Part shown: positions 41,811-60,300 of the stretch, in pieces
How positions within the stretch are numbered: position 1 is the stretch's first letter
How the letters are laid out: each line of letters opens with the position of its first letter
Assembly: GCA_001244265.2 (NCBI GenBank)
Contig: CDLV01000004.1
Span: forward strand, 2,046,001 to 2,110,000
Source of the DNA: Microbotryum violaceum
Lineage: Eukaryota
Length of the DNA stretch: 64,000 nt
Direction of reading: 5' to 3'
Made by a program: the position numbers and the translations under genes
Notes under the pieces: model-generated
What the model was told of the DNA's origin: nothing
The model's input: the letters and a program-made list of their open reading frames with translations, nothing else
The model's database searches: none

Positions 41811-41867
41811 AGTTCGGCCTTGAAGCTTCGCGGCAAGCCCGCCCAATTTGCAGTAGATCCTTTGCGC

Positions 41868-44800
41868 AGGACCCCCGAAAGCCCAGCCAGAGGCGCATGC
41901 GAAAAAACGCCCTTTTTTGGCCTTTTTGTCAAAGTTTTTTACCCTATTTTGGCCCCAAAATGTCAAAATTTCGCATGCGCCTCGGAAATATTATCAAAAT
42001 GTGTTCTACATGCTCCAAAAATCGCTCAAAAGTCCTCGAAAACGCGTTCCGAGCGTTTGCGGGCGCGCCGCGGCCTATCGAAAGTGGCTTGCGGGCGCGC
42101 GTCGCTTCGGCTGGTGTTGCGCGTGGCTCCAGGCTTCGAACAAGCCTTCCTTGCTTTGCTGGCTGGCTCGCTGCTTCGTTGTCAGACTTCCTTTTTGCTG
42201 AAGTTGAGCTCCTTGTTTCCGCGGTGGCATTTGTGCGACTTGTAGAGGTTCTGCCGGCGGCATCTCGCAGGCCGGGCACGCTCCGAAGGGCGGCAAACCT
42301 TTGCTCGGCATGTGCGCTCGTGCTGATTAGGCGCTCGTCCGGGTAACATGAGGAAGGTCCGTGGTTGAACGATATGTAGTCGTTGACGGGCCTAATGACT
42401 CGATGACCTGTCGACCATCAATCATGGGGAACGGCATAGTGCCATCAATGAGGTGTGTGGAATAGCATGTTTTCTTGATGAGGCGAAGCTCCTGTACGAC
42501 GACATTTGAGAGCAGAACCAACGAGGCGAGCGTGTCTTGGTTGCAGTGGTTTGTTGTCACTTTGCTGTAGATGTATCGCACTGTAGGACACAAGACTTGT
42601 GTCAAACGAGAACTTCACAGCTCAACTGCCACTCAAAACAATGTACCAATTCCGATAGACAGCGCTTCTTCTCCATAAGCAGTTTGATCGCAGCTGAGTG
42701 AATGCATGCCACGCTTGAGGCCAAAGCAGCAATCTCCAATGGTGTGGCAGCGGTTACAGCTCCGTCAAGCGATCCAAAATGAGGATAGCGTTGTGCTAGC
42801 GCTCCATACTGCTTGTCTCTCTCAGGGAGCTTTTCCTAAAAGTATAGGACCGGCAAAACATTAGATCCAGCTGCCTTCGTTCCTAAATTCAGCAACAACT
42901 CACTTGAATGCGGCCGTCCTCAATATAGGCGCTCTTCTGAATCTCGTTTGTTGTGAGCGCTCGGGCCACCTGACCACCTCCAGTCCAGCGAAAGCTCCTT
43001 GCGGTGCCCGCAATGTCTTCGAAGCGAGATGGTCCCATGGACTGCACCAACCCTTTCAAGACGCGTGAATGTACTGCACTGCGTCCTTGCTCTGTATTGC
43101 TAATCTCTAAGCCTGCCTCTCCGCGACTTGTGTCGCTCAATTCCATTGGCCTCCCTTTGAGTAGAACAACTCTGAGGTGGCTACACTCATGAGCAGCTCG
43201 ATGGGCAATCAAGCTGGCCCAGTTCAGCGAGAAACTGGTATCGCGAGCATCAACAAGAGGCGGAAGTTTCAAGTGTGTAGGCTGTATAGTACCGAAGATG
43301 CATGAGTTCAGATCGAAATTACGCTAGTTAAGCTTGGTAGACGCACGATTGGACGTAATGAGCTGTTTGCCTTCTCAATGGTCTCGAGTACGTAGCGTTC
43401 CTCAGCTTGTCTGTCAGCTTCGTCGTAAGCGATTTGCACGTCGAGTCTGGCCAATGAGAAAGGAGAACCATATGAGGTCCGGATTAAAAGGTAGAAGAAC
43501 GCTTCAGCGCACATGGCACAGTGAAGTGTCCACTCACAAGGCTGCCTCAACGTCAAAGTCCAGAGCTGCAAGCGATCGAATTGCACGGTCGACAGCTTCC
43601 CGCTCGTTTGGGTCCAGTTTCACAACACCTTGGCACGTGCTACGTCGCATGCCATCAAGAGCAGAATCCAGCAATTCGGTGCGGAGCAGACCTTGATCTT
43701 CCTTGGTAGGATGATGGTCTTCAAGATCTACTTCAAGTGGGCATGGTATCCCGTGTCAGATACGCATCACTTGTAGACCAAGTCGTTCGGAACTACCTTG
43801 AACTGTTGTGCCATGGGCGAGTACGTCAATTGACGAGTATGTCAGGTTGCGGACCTTGGTTGCGTCTGTTGGACGCGATGCGTTGCACAGGCTCCCACAT
43901 GTGTAAACCTGAAAGCAGTTCACGCGCAGTATTTGCCGCTGCAAAACTGGTGAGAGAGATGTCGCCATCACTGGGGTACGTTCGCATCGCAACAAGGTCA
44001 AGATCGTCGAGGTCGTTGTAGGTATGATGGTAGCCTTGACGTGATCCCGCCGCCTCGGTCTTAAACTTCCTCACGAGCTCCAAGAGTGCAGTGACTTTGC
44101 CAGTTGCCTGTCGGATTCTAGCCGGGTTAACTACTGTATATATTAGATTGATTTATGAAGAACGCACCTGCAAGGACTCTAGAGCATCGAACTCCTTTAC
44201 AATCTGGCGTATACCCCGAAGAAGTGCTCCACCAATTCTGTGCCATGCCGCCAGGGAATGAACGATTCCTTCGGCCAAAAATCTCGGTAGTTGCGGACGA
44301 GAGCAATCGTTGAGTCAACCATCTTCCTGACCCCATCAAGCGTTTCTTTGGCGAGGAACGAGTGAGAGCTAGATCCGGGGCGACTTCGGACAAAGTCATA
44401 CCACGCCTCGAACGTATATCTGACAACGAGCAACATCCTGATACGTTCAAGGGGCTGAAGCGACCGGTTCTGGATGGCATCGTGTAACTCGCCACATAAG
44501 AAGAGATATATGACCGCATCGGGGTCGAGTTTTTGTCTTCAGCGAGTTCGGTTACGAGTTCGAGCGTCGCCTTGGAGAATGCCCGATGTGTTGCATTGTC
44601 GTCTTGGCGATCACGCCCGACCACATCACGACAAGACAGAGTACGACGCGACTCCAGTCCGCCCAGGATGGTGAGCATATCCTGGTAGGCAATGCATCCG
44701 AGACCACCGAACAGCAATCTTGCTCCAGAGTCGATAGCGTTCCTCAGACATTTGGCCAGGTGTTTTTCGTCCCGACATAAGACTATCGGCGTTCCCGCGA

Positions 44801-47800
44801 CGTTGACGGTCGATATAGTGATCTCAGGAAACACTCCGTCCAGATCTGGGGAGGGGAGGGTGTATGATGACGCGTTCCTTGATCCGGTTTGAGCAACAGC
44901 GCCACCCTGATCGCGCAAAAGGACGGCAACATTACGTTGCAGCACACCCTCGCTTGCCGCACCATCTGCGGAGATGGATACCAGAAGGTGTGCGACGCAA
45001 CGTTTTATTAATTCTTGTATCACTGAATGTAACTGTTCGGTCACGTCCTCCGCGTTCGTAGTTTCGCCGATCACAAAAGCGGCACACACCTGTGCTGGGG
45101 AGCCAACATCGTTCGGTGCTATCATGTAAGCTCGGATCTGAATGAAGAGGCGACACATGTTGAAGCCTCATGGAAATGAAGTACAAACTTAAAAGAATCA
45201 TTGCCACTCACTTTGGTTCCAGCAACCGGGGGTCAGGTCCGCTGAACATATCAGGGAATTCACCCGGAGTTTCGTAGATGCGTGGCGGACCAATTGATCC
45301 GATCAGCTCGTGGCGGAATATGCCCTTTGTACGTAGCTCGCGCTCTAAACTGAGGTCTTCTGAGTAGTATGGAGTGGTTCGCATCCTGGACCGACACTTC
45401 GTGTCGTCTACGTGCAAATTGAACGTTAGGCCGTCTGCTTCGAGTTTCGCGCAGACACGATCCATGTTGGACTTGTCGAGGCCGAGGCGCATCCTGCCTG
45501 ATGTCGCTCGGTCCATTCTGCAAGCACCTCGATCATTCAGTATGAGGTTGAATTGAAGGAACGAAAGAATGACAGTACTCACTGCAGTTTTCGGCTTGTG
45601 GATGCGCCGATTGTAGCCTGCAGCACTCTCAGAGCCATCGGAGACGCCAGCGCCATGGCTTGCTCGAAGTCACGCAGCGCTTCGGACTGCACAAAGCCTC
45701 GCATCGATTTGCCCTCGACCATCCGATCGTGCTTGACCGTAGCCGCTTTCACCAATCCCTCCAAGATGTTCGCTCCGTCAAATTCTCCTGAGGCCACACC
45801 TTGCGCGAATTGTAGATACACGGTCCCTTGACCGTTGTCATCCAGGATCTCTTCTAGTCCATGATGTCGCCGGTAGATGGCCGAGAGAAGTGTATCGCCC
45901 GCGACATATTTCTTGTTGGTGTATTTGCGAGTTGCGCCAGCAGCATATTGACGTCGAAGAGCTGCTCGACAGGATGAATCCTTAGGAAGCCTCGCGCATT
46001 CTTCACACGGTAAGCTTGGTCCGTCCTTGTTGATCGAATCTCGAGCGCTATACTTGCGACAATTCACACTGATGATGCGCGGTGCTCGATGATCGTTGCG
46101 CCACTTCCATTCATTCGCTTCCAATTTGTCCACCTCCTTCCTCTCGAGCTCCGTCATTGGTCGTTTACCAATTTTGGGATAGAGGCGCAAACAAAGCGTC
46201 CGTCGAGGAGGGGCCCCGCCACCCTGCGCTGCAGTTGATGAAAGATAATGCATCGCCGATTCAGACGTAAGGCCGGGGCACGGTCCTAGCGAGGGGCTGG
46301 TAGCAGTTGAGCCAGAGGCGATAGGTCTGAAGAAATTGCTGATGGGTTGGGGTTGACACACTTCTTATTGCCGAGAAGTAATTGAAATCGTGCCTTGTAC
46401 AGCAAGGCCGCCATTGGAACCAAGACATAACAACGTCCACACCGCACGTACTTTGGATTGTTGACGTTGACATTCGATCCCGGGCAAAGATCTTTGACTT
46501 TTTCAGCAAACCTCCTGAAAAGAGGCGGATGGTCGTGAGCCCACGTCGTATGCTCCTCGGGGGTGAGCTCTCGAGCTTTCGTCGGCTTCGATACCTTGGT
46601 GAAGGTCGTTTGAAGTCGAGAAGATGGCGGGTTTTTTGAGGATGATGCGACTCGTTGATTTGTTGGCTTGATTGTCGCTGCCTTGCCGAACTCTGCCGAC
46701 GTGCTCTTGCTGCTCAGTGTTCCGGCAGCGGATCCCCTCCCAGACTTTGCCTTGGATTTTGCGCCCGTGGCAACGATGGATTCGATCTCTTTGGGATCCT
46801 CGACAGCACCAACCAGAGAGGATAAACGACAGAATTGACGGAGCCGTGACATGTGAGCGCGCGCTGCGTTGAATGACCCAATCCCGAGCACCTCCGTCTC
46901 CACTGCATTGATGGTAGCCGGCCCGCACGAGTAGCTGTCTTCCTGTTGTTCCGCCTTAGGAGTATGAGGGAACTCGTTTTTGATGTCCAGCTTCAGAAAT
47001 TTGAATAGCGTAAGGACGGCCGTCCGAGTAGCCGCGGTGATCGGAGTGGCGGAGAGTGAGTTGATCACAGACCATGTCCGCTTGTGCATGTTGATGCGGG
47101 CCAGGACCCAATGGCTGTCGGAGCAGAGGGGTAGAAACCAGATTGACTTTGAAGTCGGCGTGTTGCGCATGCAATCGCCTAGCTCGATGAGATTCCGATA
47201 CTGGTTTGGCGGGCCGAAAAAGCAGGCTTTGAAGACCGAATGAGGATCCGAGTCGGGAGGGCGAGCCATTACCAAGGAGATGACGGTGGAGGGTACAAGT
47301 CCATACGATGTTTCGAAATCGGGATTCTGCACTCGTTCAGCTCGAAGGACGCTTTCAATTGACAAGTTCACCGCGGCTTCACCGAGCCAATCATGACCTG
47401 GGTAGAGACGCGAATAAGCAAGTTGCCTCAGATACGAGATGAATACAAGTGGCCAGCTGAAGGATTGGTGTACTAACTTAAGAATTTCAGGGGATCAACC
47501 AAACTCGTTCCATTTGCAAGAAGAGGCAATGGTAGAAGCCCGTCTTGCTCTTGCCATTGCAATCCGTTCAGTATGCGACGTGCGACAGCGATACGGTTGC
47601 GGTCAATTTCGTTGATAACGATAATTTTGTCCATCCATCGTTGAGCTCGCAGCGCCCAGCTTTGAACGTCTTTTGCTCGGTCGTACTCTGACCATAGCCG
47701 ATCGGCGCCGAGCGGCAAACACGTCGACCCGACGGCCAAAGATCGATATCCTGGCTTGCGTGCATTGATCAGAGCATCGGTAGCGAGAAACGCGTCTCTG

Positions 47801-48422
47801 GTCTGAAGAGTCGGGTAGGGTAAGTTCGAATACTGGGTGGGCTCGTTTTTGGACAACTCGATGTGAAGAGACGCGTCGGCGGGAGCGACATCGAAGGCGA
47901 GGAGCTCGGCAACCGTTATGTTGGTGAGCGGCGATAATCGATCAAAGTCATCGTCGTGCAAATAGTAGTCCTGATCTTCGTCAAGAAACAAGCATGGAAT
48001 CATTTCGTCGTGCTATGCTCCAGTGTCAGAACGAAGTGAAGCGGAACGGAACCTCAGGGGCCCCGTCATTTTTATCTTACTCGATAGGGGAATCTAATCC
48101 CTAATATTCTCTAACAGCCACTGAACTAAAGTGATTAGCGAAAATGGCTAGTGACTTGTTCAAGCGCGAGCATCGCGAAGCGCGTTTCGAAGCGAAGGCA
48201 AACGGGCCCAAAGCGATGCCGTAGGCTGCTCAGGGTAGGCCAAAATTGGGCCGACTCACGGGAAAATGTCAAAATCTGGGCATGCGCCTCGGGGCGAAAC
48301 GTGTGTTTCGTCCCAAAATGTCAATGTTTTGCGATGCGCCTCGACGATTTTCAGGATTTTGGGTCCTCAAAATGTCCAAAAAAAAAAAAAAAAGCGCCTC
48401 CGGCTGGGCTTTCGGGGGTCCT
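41868..48422 (-). mobile_element. TIR DNA transposon (6.55 kb) encoding a Ulp1-like protease and a P-element-like DDE transposase
   Basis: 29-bp TIR AGGACCCCCGAAAGCCCAGCC(A/G)GAGGCGC (28/29 match); CGC on both flanks; one long minus-strand intron-containing gene. Confidence 0.85.
42330..48003 (-). pseudogene. Multi-exon gene: N-terminal domain, Ulp1/C48 peptidase, Cys clusters, P-like transposase and C-terminal domain (some frameshifts)
   Basis: WLGEAAVN, SHW, INSL, QEDSYSCG; LHVDDTK (~45405), SADG (~44965), DEKHLAKCLRN (~44765), ELVEHFFG (~44228). Confidence 0.75.
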
Positions 48423-48425
48423 CGC

Positions 48426-48565: not shown

Positions 48566-50029
48566 GACATCGCCAGCGCCCCCGACTTTCTATCCGAGAC
48601 CGTCCTGGAATTCCTTCCCGATCTTGGATGGTCCCACATGCTGAACTGTGCGACCCACCTACACAGACGCTAAAGCATTCCGCGAGAATGCCCGGTCTTA
48701 CAACAACGCACTATCCTTTACTTCGCTCGCTGCCCACTGCGACCAAACCCAAGTGGGCACGCTAGGACCCCCCGTGTTTGGTCGCCTCTACCATCGACTC
48801 GGCGCCCTGATCCCTGCCGTGACTAAACGCCCAACCTTTGCTCAAACATGGCTGATCGACCCGGCCGAGGCCACCGACACTCGACTTGGACCCGACGGCG
48901 CAGACAGTCACATGCAACGATCTACTTTGACCAAGCTCGAGTCCATGTTGCGTACCAAGAATCACTTTGTGAGGGAGTTCGCATCGGCCAAAGCTCGCGC
49001 AGGTTGGGATACGACCAAAGAGTGGATCCTGCGCCTCTGCCTCCCGCCAGGCCGGGACCGACGCACCCACAACCCTCCTACGTCGAGCACGGAAATGGCG
49101 ATGCTTATCTGCGGTTCCGACACCAACACCGGAGATCGTGGACCGCAAGACCTTATTCTCCAGGTGCACGGTGATCGATGTCCCGATGGTCGGCCCAAGT
49201 ACCAAACCGTTAGCTCGCTCCATCCGTCTGCGATGCCTCTCCGGTACCCACTACTCTTCCCCGCGGGGGAAGATGGCTTCCACCCCAACATTCCTCTTTG
49301 CGGTTTCAACCAAGCTGGGCCGCCCATCGCCAGAAACCGAGAGCAGATCGACAATGGTGTCCAATTGCGCGAGCTACTTGCCGGCCTTGGTCCAGATGAA
49401 GAAGACGAAGAGGAGGACGAAGACCGCGACGATGAGGATGAAGACGGCGAGGAAGGGGACGAAGAGGATGGTGATGGCGAACGTACGCGTCTTCGGCTCT
49501 TTCTCTGATGTTCCATTCTACCGAAGGCGCAAGCACAGACTGACATTGAACTTTTGAACACCTAGGACGAAGGTCAAGTAAAGGGGTCGAGGTGGCGAGT
49601 CTCGCGTTCACAATTCTTTGCGCACTACTTGCCAAATGCGACGAGCACTTCTCAATCCCGCATTGCACCCAACGTCCCTTCCTGGAGTTCGTGAATTACG
49701 GATATACTCCCAAGTCAAAACCGGTTGACTCAACACATCCGGTTACATCAAGAGAACCTACGCCTCACCACAACCCAAGGCATCAACGGCTTGACCCCGA
49801 ACCAAATCGCGACATCACGCAGCGATACCAGGATGCGATGGCGTACGTTGTCAAACACGGAAAGCCTCCGCTGCTCATCACGATGACGTACGATCCCGAC
49901 TCACCGGAAACCAAGGCTGCACTGGGGCCGTTAAAGCATGCAACCGTCCGGATCTCATTGCACGAGTGTTTGAAGCCAAGTCCGGCAACAAGCGACATGC
50001 AGGCTGTTTCGGCAATGAATGTAAGATGA
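48566..50029 (+). pseudogene. Helitron RepHel fragment
   Basis: FRENARSYNNALSFTSL, GRLYHRLGAL, PLRYPLLFPAGEDGF, YQDAMAYV.KHGKP.LLITMT (Rep motif 1). Confidence 0.88.
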
Positions 50030-50099: not shown

Positions 50100-53000
50100 T
50101 TATCCTGCTATTTTTTGGATTTCATCCTCCCGTTGAATTAACGGGTTCCCACTGGTTCAAATAAATAAAAAACAGTTTGACCCGCGCGACACGCCACCGA
50201 CCGCGGTCGTGGCACCCAATCACTGGCAATCTATACTCTACAAAGGTGTCTACAAAGGTGTTCAAAATGCCTGTGATCATTAATATCGAACCGAGCTTTG
50301 CTCCCACCTCCGAGGAATTCGCAATCTTGAGCCCTGTTGCCGACCTACGCCTCGTTGACCAGACTTGACCTACTCGCGTACGACCTACCTGTGCCCGACG
50401 CTTCTCTCCGACTTGCTCTATCGAAAGATGACCCTCGAAATTTTGACGCGCTGCCACGCCCCTCGAAGCAATCTATCGGAAAGTTTTCCGATCAAAGATT
50501 TCTATTCTTGGCTTATCTCGATGGCTATCGATCTATCGCCGTATCGGGGTCGTCAATGCGCCTTCCTCTCGATGCCTCGGCGTTATGGGCCCATCTCGAC
50601 AAGGCCGAAAAAATTCGATATATCATCCACAACATTCAAGAATGGATTCCTCGATCAGCTAACGCCGACGCGATTCGGGAGCGTGAGCTTGCCAGTGTTC
50701 GTCATCACCTCACTCGCATACGTTGGACAGCTGTCGACCGCGTCAATCTTCGAGGTCGATCTACACGCCTCCAAAACTTTCTACAGATCCTCAGTGAGTT
50801 TGCATCCTCTGGGCTCATTCATGAGTCGATCTTGGATACTGATGTGGGTAGAATCTTGCGTGTGTCTGCAGGCTCCGCCTGGTACTCCGAAACACATCCG
50901 AGTCGACCGTTCGCCAAGGTGTCCCTCCGAACGTGAACGAGGCTGGTCTGAACCAAGTCCTCGATCGTGTCCGTCTTGTCGGATCGGAGCCATTACCGTG
51001 TATTATGCGACGCGAGGAATGCAACGCGCTTCTTTCGGTGACTGCGCTTGACATTGACCAGGAAGCTCTGATGTACGTAGCTTGGTGTTTGAGAGCAACA
51101 AACGATCACTAACAACCGTATATTGAACCCTCAGCGAAGCTGTTGATGCTGGCTTCGATCAAGCCGATGCAGAAGAAGAAGATCGAGAGTTTCAAACGAT
51201 CCTGGCCGAAGCATGCCATGAGCATGAGCAATCCGTGAGTGAGCGCAATTATCGGTTGATCGATGCATTTACCGATACAGACCCGTGTTCCCAACCAGTG
51301 GGAAGCGCCCCCGTACCCGCGTGATCTTCTAGAGAAGGGGCCCTCTACTCTGTCCCCACACTCGACTTGGACAGCTTGCTCGCTCGACGACGTGCACACC
51401 AATGCCGACACCTCGAGAAGATCAAGTTTAAAGGTGGTGCACAGAACGTAGCGTCAGATCAACCCTTTGCCCAAAACCGAACCGAGCACCGCGGCAACGT
51501 GCATTCTGCCGCACTTCGACGGATAGTCGAGACAATGGGAATGGACAGGTATCGACAGTCTGTGGGGAACGAGAGGAACCTTCGCTTCAGGGGCAAATAT
51601 CCGGGAGATGACTTTGCACGAGCAAGCGACAACTGCGATCATCACCGAGGGACGATCTCACGTTAGTCGCTGATTCGTGATGTATCATGACGCAAGCTGG
51701 GGCGTGCCTTTTCTTGCGCTCACATTTGACTTCGACACCACAGGACAAAATGAAAGGACGACAAGAGGTCTATGGTCAGATCATGTCGAACGACGTACTC
51801 GTCCGAGCTGTTGATGGTGATGTGTCTGCACTCCGTTCTCTCAAGGTGGACATACTGGTCGTGTATGGAATCCCAGAAGAACCTATGGTTTTGCCTTCCG
51901 GTGAACAATGCGGGGAACGACTGGCAATCGGGATAGGTATGCCAAACTACTACTTGTGTGGGGAAACCTCACATGACTGACTAGCACCGTGACTGCGCAT
52001 TTTACTTGTCACCTTCCCTGCAGTGAGGAACATTTACAAGAAGTCAAGCACAACTTATGAAAGTGTTGAAAGTCTTGACTCTCTTGCTCTTTTCGCAAAT
52101 GCCGTGATACAAGAGCTGCGTGTCATCGCTCCAGGAGTTTACTCCAACCTGTCTCATCAGGGCAACACGCGCATTCGTCAAGTCGATGGGCGCTGTATCA
52201 TAAATTCGCTCAAACCGGACTTGTCAAGCATCAACTACGAGGTCAAGGATTCCACACGATCTAACTGGCGTGATGAAGGGGAAATTCACATCACCGTCAA
52301 TCAAGAAAAACGGTACAGGCTTTTGCAGAACATAAAAGGAATTTGAGCAGCATCCCTTGCTTGTCTTGCACCAGGAGGCCGTTCAGACGAAGACGAAGGG
52401 CGTCAACAATGATGAAGAATGAAGGTCAGCCTGGCTCATGCTCGTATGGCGGTAAGCTTTGTCAGAGCTTGGCCCATCAAGCGCGGCAGTGGATCGCGGC
52501 GGGGCAGGTGTGGAGCAGAGCTACACATCGAACCCCGAAACTTCCGGCCGCCGTAGGGCAATTGTGAGGCGCCCGTGCGGCGCGTGCCCTACCGCATTTG
52601 GACGGCAAATTGGCAGGTAGAGTACGGCTGCCCTGAGGCCCTGCTCTACGGTGGCCGTGGGCACCCGCCCGACGGCTCCCGTACGCGGCTGGCCTTACGG
52701 CCACCGTGAGGCAGCCCTATGGACACCGTACCGAGCCACTACTGGGCGCATACTGTCAGACTGTGCCAGCCATGAGGCCCCAGTTGATTCATGTACAACA
52801 GCACACATTACATAAACCCCACTATACCGATGCACCAAACTATCATCAAGCGTAGACCCTCCTCTTCGCATACACTGCTTCCTGGACGTGAGCACTGCGA
52901 ACCTCCACGGAACTACTCAGGGTCTCTTCGAGCCGAAGTCCCTTCAACTCCCTTCAACCATCCCCCTTTTCCTGCCTCTTGGCCTTCTTGCTCTTCCTTT

Positions 53001-56000: not shown

Positions 56001-57030
56001 CGCTCTTGGCCAGCCGAGTCGGGCATCCGGCGTACGATTGACTATCAAATATCAACCAGTACGAACGAGGGGATTCTAAACGTCTGATCAAAACATAGCC
56101 TTGCGGTGCCCAGAAAGTGGTGTTGGCATGAGGTGATTTATGGGCTGAATGTCAAGGTAAAAAATTGGCGCCCCAGCCGGACGGCTCATCGACTTTTGCA
56201 ATTGGTCCGACGTCCCAGATTCCCAATAACGGCGAGTCAAGGCTCAACACGGAGTGGAATGAGTCTTCGTCGACATGAATTCGATCTCGAGCTATATGCA
56301 ATACTCTCTGTGCAATGAAATGGCCCGTAAAAGTAACTGCTGTCGACGCGGAATTTCGGCCGCTCCCGTACGGGAAGTCGGGAACAGAACTAATGCTCCG
56401 GTATGGCAAGCGTACTGAGGCCGTATGGATTACGTCCGAACCTCGCAGGCGGGCAGTTAACAGATCCCGTCATCGCCTGCTTTAGTGTCCAAGTAAGATT
56501 GACGCACGGCTACCGTGAGAGTTTCCGCCCCACCGCGGCCGGACGGGCTTCCGGATGTCGTAGGGCAGGCGTCGGGCAGCCGTATTCAGAAGCCCGGATG
56601 GGGCATTACGGCCTGGCCCGTACGGTTGTGAGAGGGGTCCCTTAAGGCAGCAGTGAGGAATCGAGTCGTTATGGCGGCCCTAGGGAAATGCCTTGCCGGA
56701 GCCCCATATATCCCATAGGGAAAACCTAAGGCCGAAATTGCCTTACGGGAGCCGTAAGTTTCGCGCTCGCATGTGTAGCAGAGCGCTGGCGGCGCTCTTG
56801 GTGTGCGCGCGCGCGACCTTTCCGGCCCGCGCGCGGCGGAAACGCAGTCTGCGCGCAGCGCAGAAAAATTTCTGAGCATTGTAGAGCTTGGAGAGTAGTT
56901 TTCAAAAATTATTCAGCACTAGGTGGCCCTCGGACATTTTCAGTCAAAATCTGGAATTTTTTTGGAACATTTTGCCTCGGAAGAAGGCCGTTTTTAGAGG
57001 GCCGCCTATGGCTGGGCTTTCGGGGGTCCT
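50100..57030 (+). mobile_element. Second, internally deleted member of the Ulp1/P-like transposon group; left TIR not found; hosts a nested element
   Basis: 50337..50936 is homologous to 47473..48003; 51880..52346 is homologous to 42327..42700; the right TIR ...GGCTGGGCTTTCGGGGGTCCT ends at 57030. Confidence 0.75.
52522..56777 (-). mobile_element. Nested TIR DNA transposon (TACACAT...ATGTGTA) with 7-bp TSD GCAGAGC and a decayed minus-strand gene (possibly KDZ-like)
   Basis: Imperfect ~42-bp TIR; GCAGAGC at 52515-52521 and 56778-56784; CCGTA/TACGG-rich subtermini; Cys-rich fragments (TCPAC, RCDCC). Confidence 0.75.
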
Positions 57031-57331
57031 GCCTGAGGTGGTCGCCAGTCAACGCCTATCGCCAGTCCACACCAGTGTGTGCTTTGTTCCCTAGTCGCAT
57101 AGGTCTGGAGCTAGTCGCATCCTTTTGTAAACGCCGCTTCACGGTCCTAGCCTCTACATTGTGCGTTTATTCCGCCTCGACCTGCCTCGACTTGTTCGAC
57201 CCAGCTGCCAGTCTTCAAACTCTGGGCGACCTTCCCTCGCCCTACCCCGCCCTCGCCGATTCTCGCGGCCCCAACTATCCGAGCTCGTGCGATCGGGACG
57301 TCGGTGCTCCACGCGTCCTTCGTAGCGGGTT

Positions 57332-60300
57332 ATGGCGATCTTCAGCTCGAGCAAAAAGTCAAAAAAGGACACGCCGAATACGACTGGCACCTCCCAGCCT
57401 CTGAATCAGTCGCAGTCGAGCAACGGTTTCTCGCGCAGCGCATCAGGCTCCCGGGTCGCCAGTGTGGATCGACCGCCAGGCCAGCCGCTGCCGACGTCGC
57501 CGTCGTCGTCGCACTCACAATCACAGGCCACAACCATGGGCCAGCCCTTCCATCCATTTGCGGCGGAGAACGCTCTCACGGCTGCTACGCGCACTTTGGG
57601 CTCTGATGAAGGTGCGAATGAGGCGGCTACAGACATTGCGCCAGTTGGGCCCGAATCGTCACCTGCGCCATCAGTCAACGCAAACGCCCGTGGCGGCGGC
57701 AGCGGTGGCGGCTACGCAGGCAACGGTGCCAGCGGCCTGTCGTTGTCGACATCCAACATCGCACAGGGTACCACGAGTCTGCAGACTCACTCCAACAGCT
57801 TAGTGTCGCAGTCCCAACCGGCGGGTCAGTCGAGCCACACCGTCCTCTATCCGTGGGCTCAGCGTCGACTCGTGTTTGCTCCAACCGCGCTCTTCCTTCC
57901 CCTCGATTTCAACAATCCCACGGCCGCACCTGCGATAGTTGGTCCCGTATCGCCACCTCCCTTTCCGCGCTATGGCCATAGCGTGAACCCTGTGGCGGCG
58001 GTATCAACGGGCGAACTGTACATCTTCGGCGGCCTCGTCCAGAATGCGGTCAAGAATGATTTATATGTCTTGAACTGTGCCGGCGGCATCGTCCACACCA
58101 CTTCGAATCTCCCATCCGGTTTGTCGGCGTCTTCTCCGATTAGCATCGGGCTAGTCGAGACGCGGGGCGAGGTCCCCGGGCCTCGTGTGGGGCACGCAAG
58201 CGTCGGCGTGGGCAACGTTCTGATCGTCTGGGGTGGTGACACCAAGAGCCGGCCCGAGGACTTGCAAGATGACGGGCTATATCTGCTCAACCTAAGTAAG
58301 TCGAGTATGGCGTCGATCGAAGTGCAGATGTTCGCGGTTGACTGACACCGCCTCGATCGATCCAGGCACAAAGGAATGGACTCGGGTGAAGACAATTGGG
58401 CCGGCCCCGGAGGGTCGCTATGGTCACGCCGCCTCCATGGTCGGCAGCAAATTCTACATTTTTGGAGGTCAAAAGGATGACGGGGGTTTTATGAATGATC
58501 TTGTGTGGTTTGATTTGCAGAAGCGTGAGTCCTCGAGGTGCAGGGTGGCGGTTGTGTAGGCGCTGACGACGATTCCATCGCTGGCCCCGGCAGTCAAAGC
58601 GGGTTCGCCCAAATGGACATTCATCGACTATGCTAGTGGCGCAGTCGTTCCGCCGCGGCGAACAGGTCATACCACAGTGACTCACGGCGACTGTATTTAT
58701 GTGTGCGTAGTGTGCATGAACGTCAGTGTTCTCCGACTTGCTCTCGAACTGACTCATGTGGCGAGGCCTCCCAATAATTCGGGAATTTCAGCTTTGGAGG
58801 AACCGACGGACAATACCACTACAACGACACCTGGTGCTTTGATACTAACACAAGTTTCTGGGTCGAGCTCTCGTGTATCGGCTACATTCCGGTTCCGCGC
58901 GAGGGACATGCCGCAACTCTCGTCGACGACGTCATGTACGTCTTCGGAGGCCGCGGCGTCGATGGTAAAGACCTGGAGGATCTGGCCGCTTTCGAGATCA
59001 CAAGTGAGTCGGGCTCGCGTATTCGCCAGGAACCCCACACCTTAAAACTGAGAGCGCGCAATGCCTGAGGTACAGATCAACGATGGTTCATGTTTCAAAA
59101 TATGGGACCCGCTCCCTCCGGTCGCTCTGGACATGCGATGGCTACTTGGCAGAACAAGGTTTTCGTGTTAGGCGGCGAATCCTACACGGCGCAGCGCCAT
59201 GACGATCCGGGTTTCATCCATGTCCTAGACACAAGCAAGATTAAGTATCCATCCGATGCGGCGCGACAGTCTTCAGTCCCACGGAAGATGTCGTCCCCGA
59301 TCATGGGTACACCCTCGTCACCGACTGGAAATATGCCTCGCTCTAACCGGGAGGAGGACCGTCGTGCCGCCTCGCCGAACGGAAGTCAACGCGGAGGGAG
59401 GCTCTCTCCGAACGGGGGACCTTCACACAGTAGCTTTGGGCAGGTCTTTGCACCTCGTCGGACCGGTTCGCCTGCGAGCCCCCCCTCAACTTTGGCCCAC
59501 GGGTCGAAGCGCACATACAGCAGCTCTCCGCCAGCTCGACCTGCACGTCCCGAGACTTTACCCTCGCCCACCATGGGCGCGCTTGAGTCTGCTTCCGAGG
59601 AACGAGCTTCGTCACCGTCAGGCAGTCAGAGACCACGCGGCGCAGCGCCTTCGCCTTTCCCAAGCTCACCGATTCAACCAGGGTCCTCGCCGCAGAGCCT
59701 TTCAGCGTCTGCTGCTTCAGCCAGTCAATTTGGCGACAGAACTGCCAATGGCTCATCCTCCGCCGCCGCTGAACCAACGGCTGTAAAGACACTCACACCC
59801 CTAGCCTCGGCGATCAAAATGAATGGTGTGATGACAAGGGATTCGAATGATGACTCACGTGGGCAGGACGCACATTCGTACTCCGAGCTTTTACTCAAAG
59901 ACGAGGAGATTGCGGTGCTGAAGGCGCGGGAGCTATGGCTTACCGAATCACTGTCGCTGGCCACCCAGAGGGGCTACAAGGTCACAGTTGGGGCACGAGA
60001 AGGGGTGTCAAGTGCAAGTGCTACGCCGAGTGATCCAGCAATATTGGCTATGATCTTGCAAGTCAAGGAGAATCTTGCCGAGACGAAGGTCAGCCACTCA
60101 TCCTGAACTTTTGATGTTGATAACCCTCGCTGATGTGCGATAGTTGATCTCTCGCAGCGCTTCCTTGCCGAAGAAGCTGAAACGGTCGAAGAGCGCGTGC
60201 GCCAAGCGAATGCGGGCCGGATTGTGGCACTGCAAGAGGCCGCGTATTACCGTTCTAAAGCAGCCGCTCTTGAACGCGGGATACCGGCCGATTTTGCGGC

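What the first reader, a model, noticed from the sequence alone, without database searches (positions are those of the whole stretch)
41868..48422. Candidate new DNA-transposon lineage: P-element-like transposase fused to a Ulp1-like protease, with AGG termini and a 3-bp TSD
Seen: 29-bp TIRs, CGC on both flanks, and one gene carrying a C48-type peptidase (SHW...INSL...QEDSYSCG) upstream of DDE-type motifs (VDD, SADG, DEKHLAKCLRN, ELVEHFFG). Established: DxxHLxKxxRN and ExFFG..R match the P/THAP9 transposase pattern, but classical P elements have CA termini, 7-8-bp TSDs and a THAP domain. Ulp1 fusions are known from Zisupton/KDZ and some MULEs. Inference: this is a fungal P-related lineage with different end and target chemistry and its own deSUMOylase, which could counter SUMO-dependent silencing or process the polyprotein.
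Basis: partly seen in the sequence, partly recalled or inferred. Interest (0 to 1): 0.85.

Follow-up and report, generated by a model that had tools for sequence, protein, structure and literature searches.

The report
Fungal P-type transposon with protease fusion
This is a copy of a cut-and-paste DNA transposon, widespread in mushroom-forming and smut fungi, whose enzyme folds like the fruit-fly P element transposase but carries a SUMO-protease-like domain at its front; related copies make the usual 8-base target duplication, so it is an unusual branch of a known superfamily, not a new kind of element.

Summary
The element spans 41868-48422 and has 29-nt inverted ends (28/29), CGC on both flanks, and every quoted protein motif on the minus strand.

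The P-like reading is supported. A model of an intact paralogue (P0002, 56% identical) matches Drosophila P transposase at Z 26.4 over 394 residues. The next best match is Tn5 at Z 12.1.

The protease is real. It hits Pfam Peptidase_C48 and has the Ulp1/SENP/NEDP1 fold. It sits in the same reading frame as the transposase in homologues across Basidiomycota.

The "3-bp TSD / new target chemistry" claim is not supported. I read 13 related elements from metagenome contigs that share the 5'-AGGACCCC termini. Seven have perfect 8-bp duplications, as P does, and none has a 3-bp one. The window copy has no 8-bp duplication, and its CGC match is at chance level (1/64).

As assembled, the window copy differs by four frame-breaking single bases in homopolymer runs from contigs of three DNA runs. 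Those runs also hold internally deleted derivatives. An RNA-like run shows four spliced introns.

P elements with 8-bp duplications were already reported in rust fungi in 2011. I call this a new variant of a known kind: a P-superfamily clade with an N-terminal Ulp1-like domain, no THAP domain and AGG termini.

The parts
41868..48422 (-). Whole element (6555 bp), with its gene on the minus strand
   Evidence: It is bounded by the inverted ends. In run X17, 3 contigs match from 41868 inward and carry differing sequence before that position (table 7).
41868..41896 (.). Terminal inverted repeat at the 3' end of the gene. It starts 5'-AGGACCCC.
   Evidence: The same 8-mer forms the termini of related elements in metagenome loci.
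48394..48422 (.). Terminal inverted repeat at the 5' end of the gene
41865..41867 (.). The 8-nt flank CTTTGCGC does not match the right flank.
   Evidence: The chance of a 3-nt match is 1/64.
48423..48425 (.). Right flank CGC. The 8-nt flank is CGCCTATG.
48263..48343 (+). Subterminal repeats (AAAATGTCAAAAT...GCATGCGCCTCG). There are two full units here, a third unit merges with the inverted end, and a related unit lies at 41956-41984. They are candidate transposase-binding sites, by inference only.
   Evidence: family D1, pairs I2 and I12. (5 matches against 0.9 expected).
42557..48003 (-). Approximate coding region of the protease-transposase gene. The start ATG at 48001-48003 is uncertain. 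The stop TGA is at 42557-42559.
   Evidence: ORF chain. Alignment to P0001, P0002 and P0004. Translation of the last exon.
46925..47113 (-). Core of the Ulp1/C48-like protease: His codon at 47111-47113 (SHW), Asn in the Asp position at 47060-47062 (INSL), and Cys codon at 46925-46927 (SYSCG)
   Evidence: Pfam PF02902. The AF2 model of this ORF has pLDDT 72.9. Foldseek matches NEDP1, Ulp1 and SENP5 at E 2.4e-6 to 1e-5.
46350..46351 (-). Frame break 1. Contigs of X1, X14 and X15 carry one extra base here, which joins the protease ORF to the next ORF, as P0001 reads (CVNLQPISNFF).
   Evidence: table 4.
45582..45885 (-). End of the ORF 45579-46364, which aligns to P0002 residues 1-101. This includes the part of the model that superposes on the start of the resolved P transposase chain.
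   Evidence: BLASTP 53% identity over 102 aa, E 4e-32. VIA aligns model residues 41-538 to chain residues 137-565.
45403..45408 (-). First catalytic Asp candidates (HVDDT), on a beta strand of the RNase H fold
   Evidence: Consensus DDTKL in the family alignments. Strand 133-141 in the model.
44964..44966 (-). Second catalytic Asp candidate (SADG)
   Evidence: D261 of P0002 is conserved in 90% or more of rows.
44739..44771 (-). The DEKHLAKCLRN motif
   Evidence: D326 and H329 of P0002 are invariant. K332, R335 and N336 are conserved in 90% or more of rows.
44529..44530 (-). Frame break 3, in an A-run. Intact paralogues read straight through (P0002 EDGKVDADAIVFLF). All contigs of X1, X15 and X17 have one extra base here, and part of X14 does. 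P0001 shares the break.
   Evidence: table 4.
44227..44229 (-). Catalytic Glu candidate (VEHFFG)
   Evidence: Consensus STExCEHxFGxxR. Helix 504-516 lies after the all-helical insertion domain in the model.
44213..44214 (-). Frame break 4, in a run of four G (minus strand). The runs have one extra base, which gives EHFFGGIRQIVKEFD as in P0002.
   Evidence: table 4.
45227..45228 (-). Frame break 2, in a run of five C (minus strand). The runs have one extra base, which gives GPDPPVAGTK as in P0001, P0002 and P0004.
   Evidence: table 4.
47398..47477 (-). Intron 1 (80 nt, GT..AG), inferred
   Evidence: It joins ...PLKFL to SHDWLGEAAV as in P0001. No RNA support.
45518..45582 (-). Intron 2 (65 nt), inferred
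   Evidence: It joins ...SRKLQ to MDRATSG as in P0001.
45138..45211 (-). Intron 3 (74 nt, GTGAGT..CAG), inferred
   Evidence: It joins ...VAGTK to IRAYMIAPN as in P0001.
43447..43537 (-). Intron (91 nt), seen as a spliced joint in run X17
   Evidence: table 5 (ends CT..AC). It fits a candidate.
43282..43346 (-). Intron (65 nt), seen as a spliced joint in run X17
   Evidence: table 5.
42836..42903 (-). Intron (68 nt), seen as a spliced joint in run X17 (the tool places the cut at +1)
   Evidence: table 5.
42581..42646 (-). Intron (66 nt), seen as a spliced joint in run X17
   Evidence: table 5.

Best explanation
The element is one copy of a multi-copy cut-and-paste DNA transposon of the P superfamily, most likely in a Microbotryum (anther-smut) genome. 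It belongs to a clade found across Basidiomycota.

Its single multi-intron gene encodes a protein of about 1,600 residues. The parts, in order, are: a conserved N-terminal region; a Ulp1/SENP-like (clan CE, C48) cysteine protease domain; a Cys/His-rich linker, probably zinc fingers that stand where P has its THAP domain; and a P-type transposase. The transposase has a split RNase H fold with D, D and E, the invariant D..H motif, and a large all-helical insertion domain. A long C-terminal tail follows.

By inference, the transposase binds the 29-nt inverted ends (5'-AGGACCCC...) and the subterminal repeats, excises the element, and inserts it with an 8-bp staggered cut. Related elements show 8-bp target duplications.

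The window copy itself has no 8-bp duplication. As assembled, it also has four single-base frame breaks. It is therefore either a decayed or rearranged copy, or a copy with homopolymer errors from assembly.

The protease is conserved as part of the same protein. Its role is not shown. It could remove SUMO or NEDD8 from host or element proteins, or it could process the protein itself.
For: Fold:
- The AF2 model of the intact paralogue P0002 has pLDDT 76.3 and pTM 0.71.
- Foldseek against the PDB puts 6p5a_A and 6pe2_A (Drosophila P transposase) first at E 4.2e-12. The next hit is ISCth4 at 5.5e-4.
- VIA-align gives 6p5a_A Z 26.4, rmsd 3.2, with 394 of 442 residues aligned (model 41-538, chain 137-565). 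Next come Tn5 at 12.1, Transib at 11.7, ISCth4 at 10.5, RAG1 at 10.4 and Hermes at 10.3.
- ESM Atlas look-alikes carry the Pfam families TNP-like_RNaseH_N, GBD, RNaseH_C, Tnp_P_element and THAP9_C.
- Direct Pfam hits are weak. PF21787 is hit by 6 of 70 members (best E 0.0081) and PF12017 by 2 of 70 (best E 1.1e-4).

Fusion:
- P0001 (94% identical), P0004, P0016 and others have Peptidase_C48 N-terminal to the transposase match.
- The family profile hits Ulp1 (1euv_A) at E 1.1e-12 over profile positions 118-250.
- With the one extra base seen in X1, X14 and X15 at 46350, the protease ORF runs without a stop into the ORF that aligns to the start of P0002.
- The N-terminal ORFs of two TIR-bounded metagenome elements align to the family's N-terminal and protease region (hhalign E 4.6e-36 and 1e-19).

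Ends and target:
- AGGACCCC occurs in 31 of 80 related loci.
- In 14 loci it forms convergent pairs around the transposase match.
- Of the 13 pairs read, 7 have perfect 8-bp duplications: L005, L016, L020, L022, L031, L039 and L055.

Mobility:
- Contigs in four runs join 42814/42817 to 47724-47766, or 43390 to 47821. These are internally deleted derivatives (table 5).
- A cluster at 90% identity holds 9 proteins from three Microbotryum species.
- Four joints with CT..AC ends occur only in the RNA-like run X17 and match frame-preserving introns.
Against: - The window copy has no 8-bp duplication, so the 8-bp rule is shown only in relatives (25-37% identity to P0002 in the best tblastn segment), not in the Microbotryum family itself.
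- 6 of the 13 related elements read also lack any duplication. I attribute this to chimeric assembly or to recombination between copies, without proof.
- No family member reaches a Pfam gathering score for any P or THAP9 model. 0 of 7 full-length homologues have a transposase family at E <= 0.01. The family profile finds no transposase in PDB sequences.
- Superfamilies without a solved structure (Kolobok, KDZ/Zisupton) could not be compared by fold. Zisupton and Dileera also make 8-bp duplications (PMC12730594, passages).
- The structure is that of a paralogue, not of the window's own broken protein.
- X17 is only guessed to be RNA, and its contigs may come from other copies that are 90% or more alike.
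- The protease has Asn where Ulp1 has the catalytic Asp.
Confidence: 0.82

Rival explanations
1. One reading: a new P-related lineage whose transposase makes 3-bp target duplications, that is, a different strand-transfer geometry.
For: CGC lies on both flanks of the only complete copy in the window. No other Microbotryum copy with both flanks could be read, because no genome is held.
Against: A 3-nt match has a 1/64 chance. Of the 13 relatives with the same AGGACCCC ends, 7 have perfect 8-bp duplications (each a 1/65536 chance) and 0 have a 3-bp match. In one search the laid contigs over the left and right flanks differ strongly in summed depth. The tool warns that depth is not copy number, so this is only a hint that the two flanks are not one target site.
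Confidence: 0.04
2. The transposase belongs to another superfamily that merely shares the P-like fold and has no solved structure, such as Kolobok or KDZ (Zisupton, Dileera, Kyakuja). Zisupton is recalled to carry a SUMO-protease domain and makes 8-bp duplications.
For: 8-bp duplications are also reported for Zisupton and Dileera (PMC12730594, passages). No P-family Pfam model is reached at its gathering score. The PDB holds no Kolobok or KDZ transposase to compete with.
Against: No KDZ family appears among the 21 Pfam families hit by any of 70 members at E <= 1. The only recurrent hits are the P-type models PF21787 and PF12017. Atlas neighbours carry P/THAP9 families. Z 26.4 over nearly the whole resolved P chain, insertion domain included, is far above the Z of about 10-12 seen between different superfamilies. 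Kolobok is recalled to duplicate TTAA.
Confidence: 0.08
3. The protease and the transposase are separate genes: a captured host Ulp1 gene or a nested second element, not a fusion.
For: As assembled, the two lie in different frames. No single contig of the RNA-like run bridges them (table 8).
Against: There is one pair of inverted ends and no second pair inside. One extra base, present in three DNA runs, makes the frame continuous. The same order of domains is found in gene models from Microbotryum, Pleurotus, Galerina, Steccherinum and Naganishia, and in TIR-bounded metagenome elements.
Confidence: 0.04
4. A domesticated, immobile host gene derived from a P-like transposase, as THAP9 is in vertebrates.
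For: Spliced transcripts. Conservation across Basidiomycota.
Against: Inverted ends, 8-bp duplications in relatives, many diverged copies, and internally deleted derivatives.
Confidence: 0.02

Closest known systems
Drosophila P element transposase and vertebrate THAP9 / Pdre (P superfamily)
   Same: The fold matches over the whole resolved chain, residues 137-565, including the insertion domain (Z 26.4). The element has short inverted ends. Relatives make 8-bp target duplications, as P and the zebrafish element do (PMC7776569, passages). Internally deleted derivatives exist. The D..H..K..RN and E..F.G..R motifs are present; their status as P signatures is recalled, not taken from a call.
   Different: No THAP domain is detected (0 of 7 homologues). 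An N-terminal Ulp1-like protease and Cys/His-rich segments stand there instead. The termini are AGGACCCC. The protein is about twice as long. Identity to P transposase is only 14-15%, and no Pfam P model is reached at its gathering score. GTP dependence is unknown.
P elements of rust fungi in Repbase (P-1_PSt; P-1_MLP, P-2_MLP, P-N1_MLP, P-N2_MLP)
   Same: They come from the same subphylum (Pucciniomycotina), the same superfamily label and the same 8-bp duplications. Both autonomous and non-autonomous forms are known (PMC3164196, passages). Repbase listed 17 fungal P entries, 'only Pucciniales & Allomyces' (PMC5751038, passages).
   Different: I could not see the Repbase sequences, so I do not know whether they carry the protease or the AGGACCCC ends, or whether they belong to this clade. 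Neither paper mentions a protease in the passages I read. None of the 15 of 20 looked-up homologues that carry an organism name is from a rust.
Ulp1 (C48) domains in other transposons: Ginger1, Mutator-like elements, oomycete Cryptons
   Same: A Ulp1-type protease is encoded by, or fused to, a transposase or recombinase (PMC2836005 and PMC3212892, passages).
   Different: In Ginger1 the domain is C-terminal to an integrase-like transposase. Here it is N-terminal to a P-type transposase. In the searches listed under Tried and rejected I found no paper that pairs Ulp1 with the P superfamily.
KDZ transposons (Zisupton, Dileera, Kyakuja) of Basidiomycota
   Same: They have the same hosts. Zisupton and Dileera make 8-bp duplications, and Kyakuja 7-bp (PMC12730594, passages).
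   Different: No KDZ Pfam family is hit by any of 70 members at E <= 1. No TET/JBP gene lies in the element. Kyakuja has CA..TG ends and no inverted repeats (same paper).

Membership tests
P superfamily (P / THAP9 transposases) | RNase H-like catalytic domain split by a large all-helical insertion domain, as in the solved P transposase | tested here: met
   The model of paralogue P0002 against 6p5a_A gives Z 26.4, rmsd 3.2, and 394 of 442 residues aligned over chain 137-565. The next family scores Z 12.1. Foldseek gives E 4.2e-12 against 5.5e-4 for the next hit. The test used a 56%-identical paralogue, not the window's broken protein.
P superfamily (P / THAP9 transposases) | Three acidic residues (D, D, E) and the D..H motif between the second D and the E | tested here: met
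   Consensus DDTKL. D261 is conserved in 90% or more of rows. D326 and H329 are invariant. Consensus STExCEH. All are present in the window. That these are the catalytic residues follows from their place in the fold, not from a residue-by-residue superposition. That D..H is a P signature is recalled.
P superfamily (P / THAP9 transposases) | 7-8-bp target site duplication | tested here: met
   In relatives, 7 of 13 elements read have perfect 8-bp duplications. The window copy itself has none.
P superfamily (P / THAP9 transposases) | N-terminal THAP zinc-finger DNA-binding domain | tested here: not met
   No THAP hit in 10 window ORF pieces at E <= 0.1, nor in 7 homologues at E <= 0.01. Cys/His-rich segments stand between the protease and the transposase (consensus). 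Their fold was not searched on its own.
P superfamily (P / THAP9 transposases) | Match to Pfam P-type models (PF21787, PF21788, PF21789, PF12017) at their gathering scores | tested here: inconclusive
   0 of 7 homologues at E <= 0.01. At E <= 1, PF21787 is hit by 6 of 70 members (best 0.0081) and PF12017 by 2 of 70 (best 1.1e-4).
P superfamily (P / THAP9 transposases) | GTP as cofactor; 17-nt staggered donor cleavage | not testable with these tools
   These features are described in PMC7776569 (passages). They need biochemistry.
Peptidase C48 (Ulp1/SENP, clan CE) | Pfam PF02902 above its gathering score | tested here: met
   Window ORF 46286-47494: 26.2 bits against 20.7, E 8.4e-6. P0001, P0004 and P0016 are also above the cut-off.
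Peptidase C48 (Ulp1/SENP, clan CE) | Ulp1-type fold | tested here: met
   The model of the window ORF has pLDDT 72.9. Foldseek finds 45 matches at E <= 0.001. The top ones are NEDP1 2bkq_A at 2.4e-6 (TMt 0.63), Ulp1 2hl8 at 3.5e-6 and SENP5 at 4.8e-6.
Peptidase C48 (Ulp1/SENP, clan CE) | Catalytic His-Asp-Cys triad with the oxyanion Gln | tested here: inconclusive
   His (SHW), Gln and Cys (QQEDSYSCG) are present. The Asp position is Asn in the window (INSL) and in P0004 (ANSL), while the family consensus has YGDS.
Peptidase C48 (Ulp1/SENP, clan CE) | Cleaves SUMO rather than NEDD8 or ubiquitin | not testable with these tools
   NEDD8-, SUMO- and ubiquitin-specific relatives score alike.
KDZ (Kyakuja-Dileera-Zisupton) | Match to the KDZ transposase family in Pfam | tested here: inconclusive
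   No KDZ family is among the 21 families hit by any of 70 members at E <= 1. No KDZ structure exists to compare.

The most novel reading that the evidence does not exclude
In this Basidiomycota-wide clade, a P-type transposase has swapped its THAP domain for an active N-terminal Ulp1-like protease plus zinc fingers. The protease would be needed for mobility, for example by removing SUMO or NEDD8 from chromatin or repair factors, or from the transposase itself, at the ends of the element. That would make it a transposon-borne counter to SUMO-dependent silencing.
Probability: 0.3. Interest if true: 0.7.

Novelty: new variant of a known kind. Interest (0 to 1): 0.45.

Why it matters
P-type transposons were thought to be rare in fungi. 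A 2017 survey found 11 copies, 'single occurrences', and Repbase listed only rusts and Allomyces (PMC5751038, passages). Pfam-based pipelines miss this clade, whose members are annotated only as hypothetical or 'ubiquitin-like protease' proteins. Yet phmmer finds 183 cluster representatives, and the named ones come from many orders of Basidiomycota.

Recognising these proteins as P-type transposons has four uses:
- It would correct repeat annotation in Microbotryum and in mushroom genomes.
- It gives a conserved terminal motif (AGGACCCC) and an 8-bp duplication with which to find the elements.
- It adds the P superfamily to the list of transposases that recruited a Ulp1 protease independently.
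- It offers an apparently young family (deletion derivatives, spliced transcripts) in which the role of such proteases could be tested.

Tried and rejected
Tools that were not available:
- No whole genome is held for the window, so I could not tabulate this family's own copies or find empty sites.
- The script machine was lost, so later work used the other tools only.

Protein and fold searches that found nothing useful:
- Pfam on the window's ORF pieces gave no transposase family.
- The family profile against PDB sequences gave only proteases: 30 of 32 rows. The other two rows are weak and unrelated.
- The two word-indexed protein searches returned almost only Microbotryum proteins, with 11 and 10 hits, and no rust protein.
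- Pfam on 10 ORFs of three metagenome elements gave one weak C48 hit (E 0.0024, below the cut-off). hhalign was needed to show the N-terminal region.

Sequencing runs:
- No RNA holder is listed.
- In one search, no joint across the whole element (an empty site) is among the joints shown; 12 further joints and 224 loose ends were not shown.
- No contig of the RNA-like run bridges the protease and the transposase.

The window's flanks and the second element:
- I searched for the missing partner of each 8-nt flank in the window. CTTTGCGC occurs 5 times against 3.06 expected, and CGCCTATG 3 times against 1.26 expected. This is at chance level.
- I tested an inversion between the two elements as the cause of the missing duplication, by comparing flanks by eye. 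They do not match.
- I searched for the second element's left end, allowing up to 3 mismatches in 21 nt and up to 2 in 12 nt. None was found.

Literature:
- One search was badly framed and useless. None of them found such a paper.
- Iyer et al. 2014 (PMC3918813) is not held.
- Repbase and paper supplements could not be seen and may already hold this family.


Full report
**1. What is in the window**

The stretch 41868-48422 is bounded by 29-nt inverted repeats, of which 28 of 29 bases are complementary. The terminal 21-mer occurs three times in the window, against none in 100 shuffles. The third copy, at 57010-57030, ends a second element.

CGC flanks both ends. The eight bases on either side (CTTTGCGC and CGCCTATG) differ. 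A three-base match is a 1-in-64 event.

Only the frame 46286-47494 hits Pfam: Peptidase_C48, E 8.4e-6, above the curated cut-off.

Subterminal repeats of an AAAATGTCAAAAT...GCATGCGCCTCG unit lie inside both ends.

**2. Relatives and the gene**

A phmmer search with the 209-residue piece that holds SADG and DEKHLAKCLRN found 183 cluster representatives at E <= 1e-3.

I looked up 20 of these. The 15 that carry an organism name come from Microbotryum (three species), Pleurotus, Galerina, Steccherinum, Cubamyces, Cylindrobasidium, Panus, Marasmius, Hohenbuehelia, Exidia and Naganishia. All are annotated as hypothetical proteins or as 'ubiquitin-like protease' proteins. The window therefore most likely comes from a Microbotryum genome.

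- P0001 (1517 aa, 94% identical) and P0004 (1173 aa) carry the protease and the transposase region in one protein.
- Of 7 homologues scanned, 5 show Peptidase_C48, 3 of them above the cut-off. None shows a transposase or THAP family.
- The family profile hits yeast Ulp1 in the PDB at E 1.1e-12, and hits no transposase.

Comparison with P0001, P0002 and P0004 shows that the window copy is broken by single bases at four places: 46350, 45227, 44529 and 44213.

**3. Fold of the transposase**

I modelled P0002, an intact Microbotryum paralogue that is 56% identical, with 90 aligned relatives. The model has pLDDT 76.3, and more than 90 over most of residues 40-540.

- Foldseek against the PDB ranks the Drosophila P element transposase strand-transfer complex first at E 4.2e-12. 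That is eight orders of magnitude ahead of ISCth4, RAG1 and Hermes.
- VIA-align gives Z 26.4, rmsd 3.2 Å, with 394 of 442 residues aligned. The alignment spans chain residues 137-565, which is the whole resolved chain including the insertion domain. The next families lie at Z 10-12.
- The ESM Atlas independently lists P/THAP9-type clusters as nearest neighbours, both by features and by structure.
- Among 70 members scanned at E <= 1, the only recurrent Pfam families are the P-type models PF21787 (6 of 70) and PF12017 (2 of 70).
- Window ORF 45579-46364 aligns to P0002 residues 1-101. So the N-terminal part of the P-like region lies in the ORF that abuts the protease ORF.

**4. Fold of the protease**

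I modelled the window's own ORF 46286-47494 with 39 aligned rows. The model has pLDDT 72.9. It matches NEDP1, Ulp1, SENP5 and SENP2 at E about 1e-6 to 1e-5 and TM 0.55-0.68 by target.

His, Gln and Cys are in place. The Asp of the triad is Asn in the Microbotryum proteins but Asp in the family consensus.

A small, well-predicted domain follows at residues 310-380. It holds a C-x2-C...H...C pattern in P0001; the window has Leu at the His position. I did not search this domain on its own.

**5. Sequencing runs**

Twenty runs from eight studies hold the stretch. I laid contigs of three DNA runs and one RNA-like run at 90% likeness.

- (a) At 46350, 45227 and 44213, all covering contigs of X1, X14 and X15 have one more base than the window. 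At 44529, all of X1, X15 and X17 do, and part of X14 does. Each site lies in a homopolymer run. Each extra base restores the frame that P0001, P0002 or P0004 read. P0001 itself shares the break at 44529. So intact copies exist, and the window copy is either decayed or carries homopolymer assembly errors.
- (b) Joints from 42814/42817 to 47724-47766, and from 43390 to 47821, show internally deleted derivatives in all four runs taken together.
- (c) Four joints with CT..AC ends occur only in the RNA-like run: 42581-42646, 42836-42903, 43282-43346 and 43447-43537. They coincide with frame-preserving GT..AG introns that I had listed beforehand. This is evidence for spliced transcripts of this copy or of a copy 90% or more alike. 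The run is only guessed to be RNA.
- (d) Three contigs of that run match from exactly 41868 inward and have differing sequence outside. This confirms the left boundary.

**6. Ends and target duplication in relatives**

A scan of metagenome contigs with the family alignment gave 80 loci.

- The 8-mer AGGACCCC, which starts the window's inverted repeat, occurs in 31 of the 80 loci. In 14 of them it forms a convergent pair 4.7-7.7 kb apart around the transposase match. The repeat finder had already found such inverted ends in L020, L031 and L039.
- I read the flanks of 13 pairs. L017 mirrors L009 and was not read.
- Seven have perfect 8-bp duplications: L005 CATTCCAA, L016 GTGCCCCT, L020 GGCCAATC, L022 CTCGAAGG, L031 GTTCTCCT, L039 CATCGACT and L055 TACAGGAC.
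- Six have none (L002, L009, L048, L052, L064 and L080). None has a 3-bp match.
- The N-terminal ORFs of L005 and L016 align to the family's N-terminal and protease region. L005 shows the HW ... GDS ... QSDSYSCG pattern.

The clade therefore has conserved AGG(ACCCC) termini, the protease fusion and the P-type 8-bp duplication.

**7. Comparison with what is known**

- P transposase has THAP, a leucine zipper, HTH, a split RNase H domain, a GTP-binding insertion domain and a C-terminal domain. P elements have 31-bp inverted repeats and make 8-bp duplications. The zebrafish element has 13-bp repeats, 8-bp duplications and deleted copies (PMC7776569, passages).
- P elements were reported as new to Dikarya in rust fungi in 2011. 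Melampsora elements flanked by 8-bp duplications were deposited in Repbase (PMC3164196, passages).
- A 2017 survey listed fungal P as 'only Pucciniales & Allomyces' in Repbase and found 11 copies (PMC5751038, passages).
- Ulp1 domains are known in Ginger1, Mutator-like elements and oomycete Cryptons (PMC2836005 and PMC3212892, passages).
- Zisupton and Dileera also make 8-bp duplications (PMC12730594, passages), but no KDZ Pfam family is hit here.
- My searches found no paper that pairs Ulp1 with a P-type transposase. I could not see Repbase or paper supplements.

**8. Verdict**

The element is a P-superfamily transposon with a fused Ulp1-like protease and AGG termini. It is not a lineage with new target chemistry.

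It is a new variant of a known kind. It is useful for annotation and as a system in which to ask what transposon-borne Ulp1 proteases do, but it is not a new class of element. The role of the protease is inferred, not shown.

Noticed in passing
window 50331-52229 and 57003-57030: A second, diverged and degenerate member of the same family lies on the plus strand. Its N-terminal ORF 50331-50936 is 32% identical to exon 1 of the main element (E 9e-19). tblastx shows C-terminal fragments at 51358-51435 and 51996-52229. An inverted end with the same 21-mer lies at 57010-57030, with flank GCCTGAGG. No left end was found. About 4.8 kb lies between the last coding fragment and that end, which may be a nested insertion.
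   Followed up: partly
window 48645-50029: A Helitron-like fragment lies directly right of the element. ORF 49550-50029 hits Helitron_like_N at E 9e-6, with 26.4 bits against a cut-off of 28.9. Contigs laid on this flank have far higher summed depth than those on the left flank. The tool warns that depth is not copy number.
   Followed up: partly
window 57326-58345: A plus-strand ORF with Kelch repeats (PF24681, E 1.4e-14), probably an ordinary host gene just beyond the second element.
   Followed up: no
window 46380-46480 (minus strand, ORF 46286-47494, residues about 340-375): A C-x2-C...H...C zinc-finger-like pattern is conserved in the family (consensus). P0001 has ...FELHLGNKKC, whereas the window reads ...FQLLLGNKKC, with Leu at the His position. 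This may be another sign that this copy is decayed.
   Followed up: no
L055 110-140 and 6400-6445: The 8-bp duplication TACAGGAC, together with the bases that follow it, resembles the element's own terminus, so AGGACCCC occurs a third time just outside the element. This may be chance, or insertion next to an end-like sequence.
   Followed up: no
L039 1605-3214: A separate pair of 219-nt inverted repeats (95% complementary) lies 1.2 kb apart, upstream of the P-like element. It may be an unrelated short inverted-repeat element.
   Followed up: no
window 42729, 42805-42856, 43688: Copies in the runs differ from the window by small insertions or replacements: 10 nt behind 42729 in X14 and X15; a 16-nt replacement of 42806-42855 in X1, X14 and X15; and 6 nt behind 43688 in X17. 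These point to several subfamilies.
   Followed up: no
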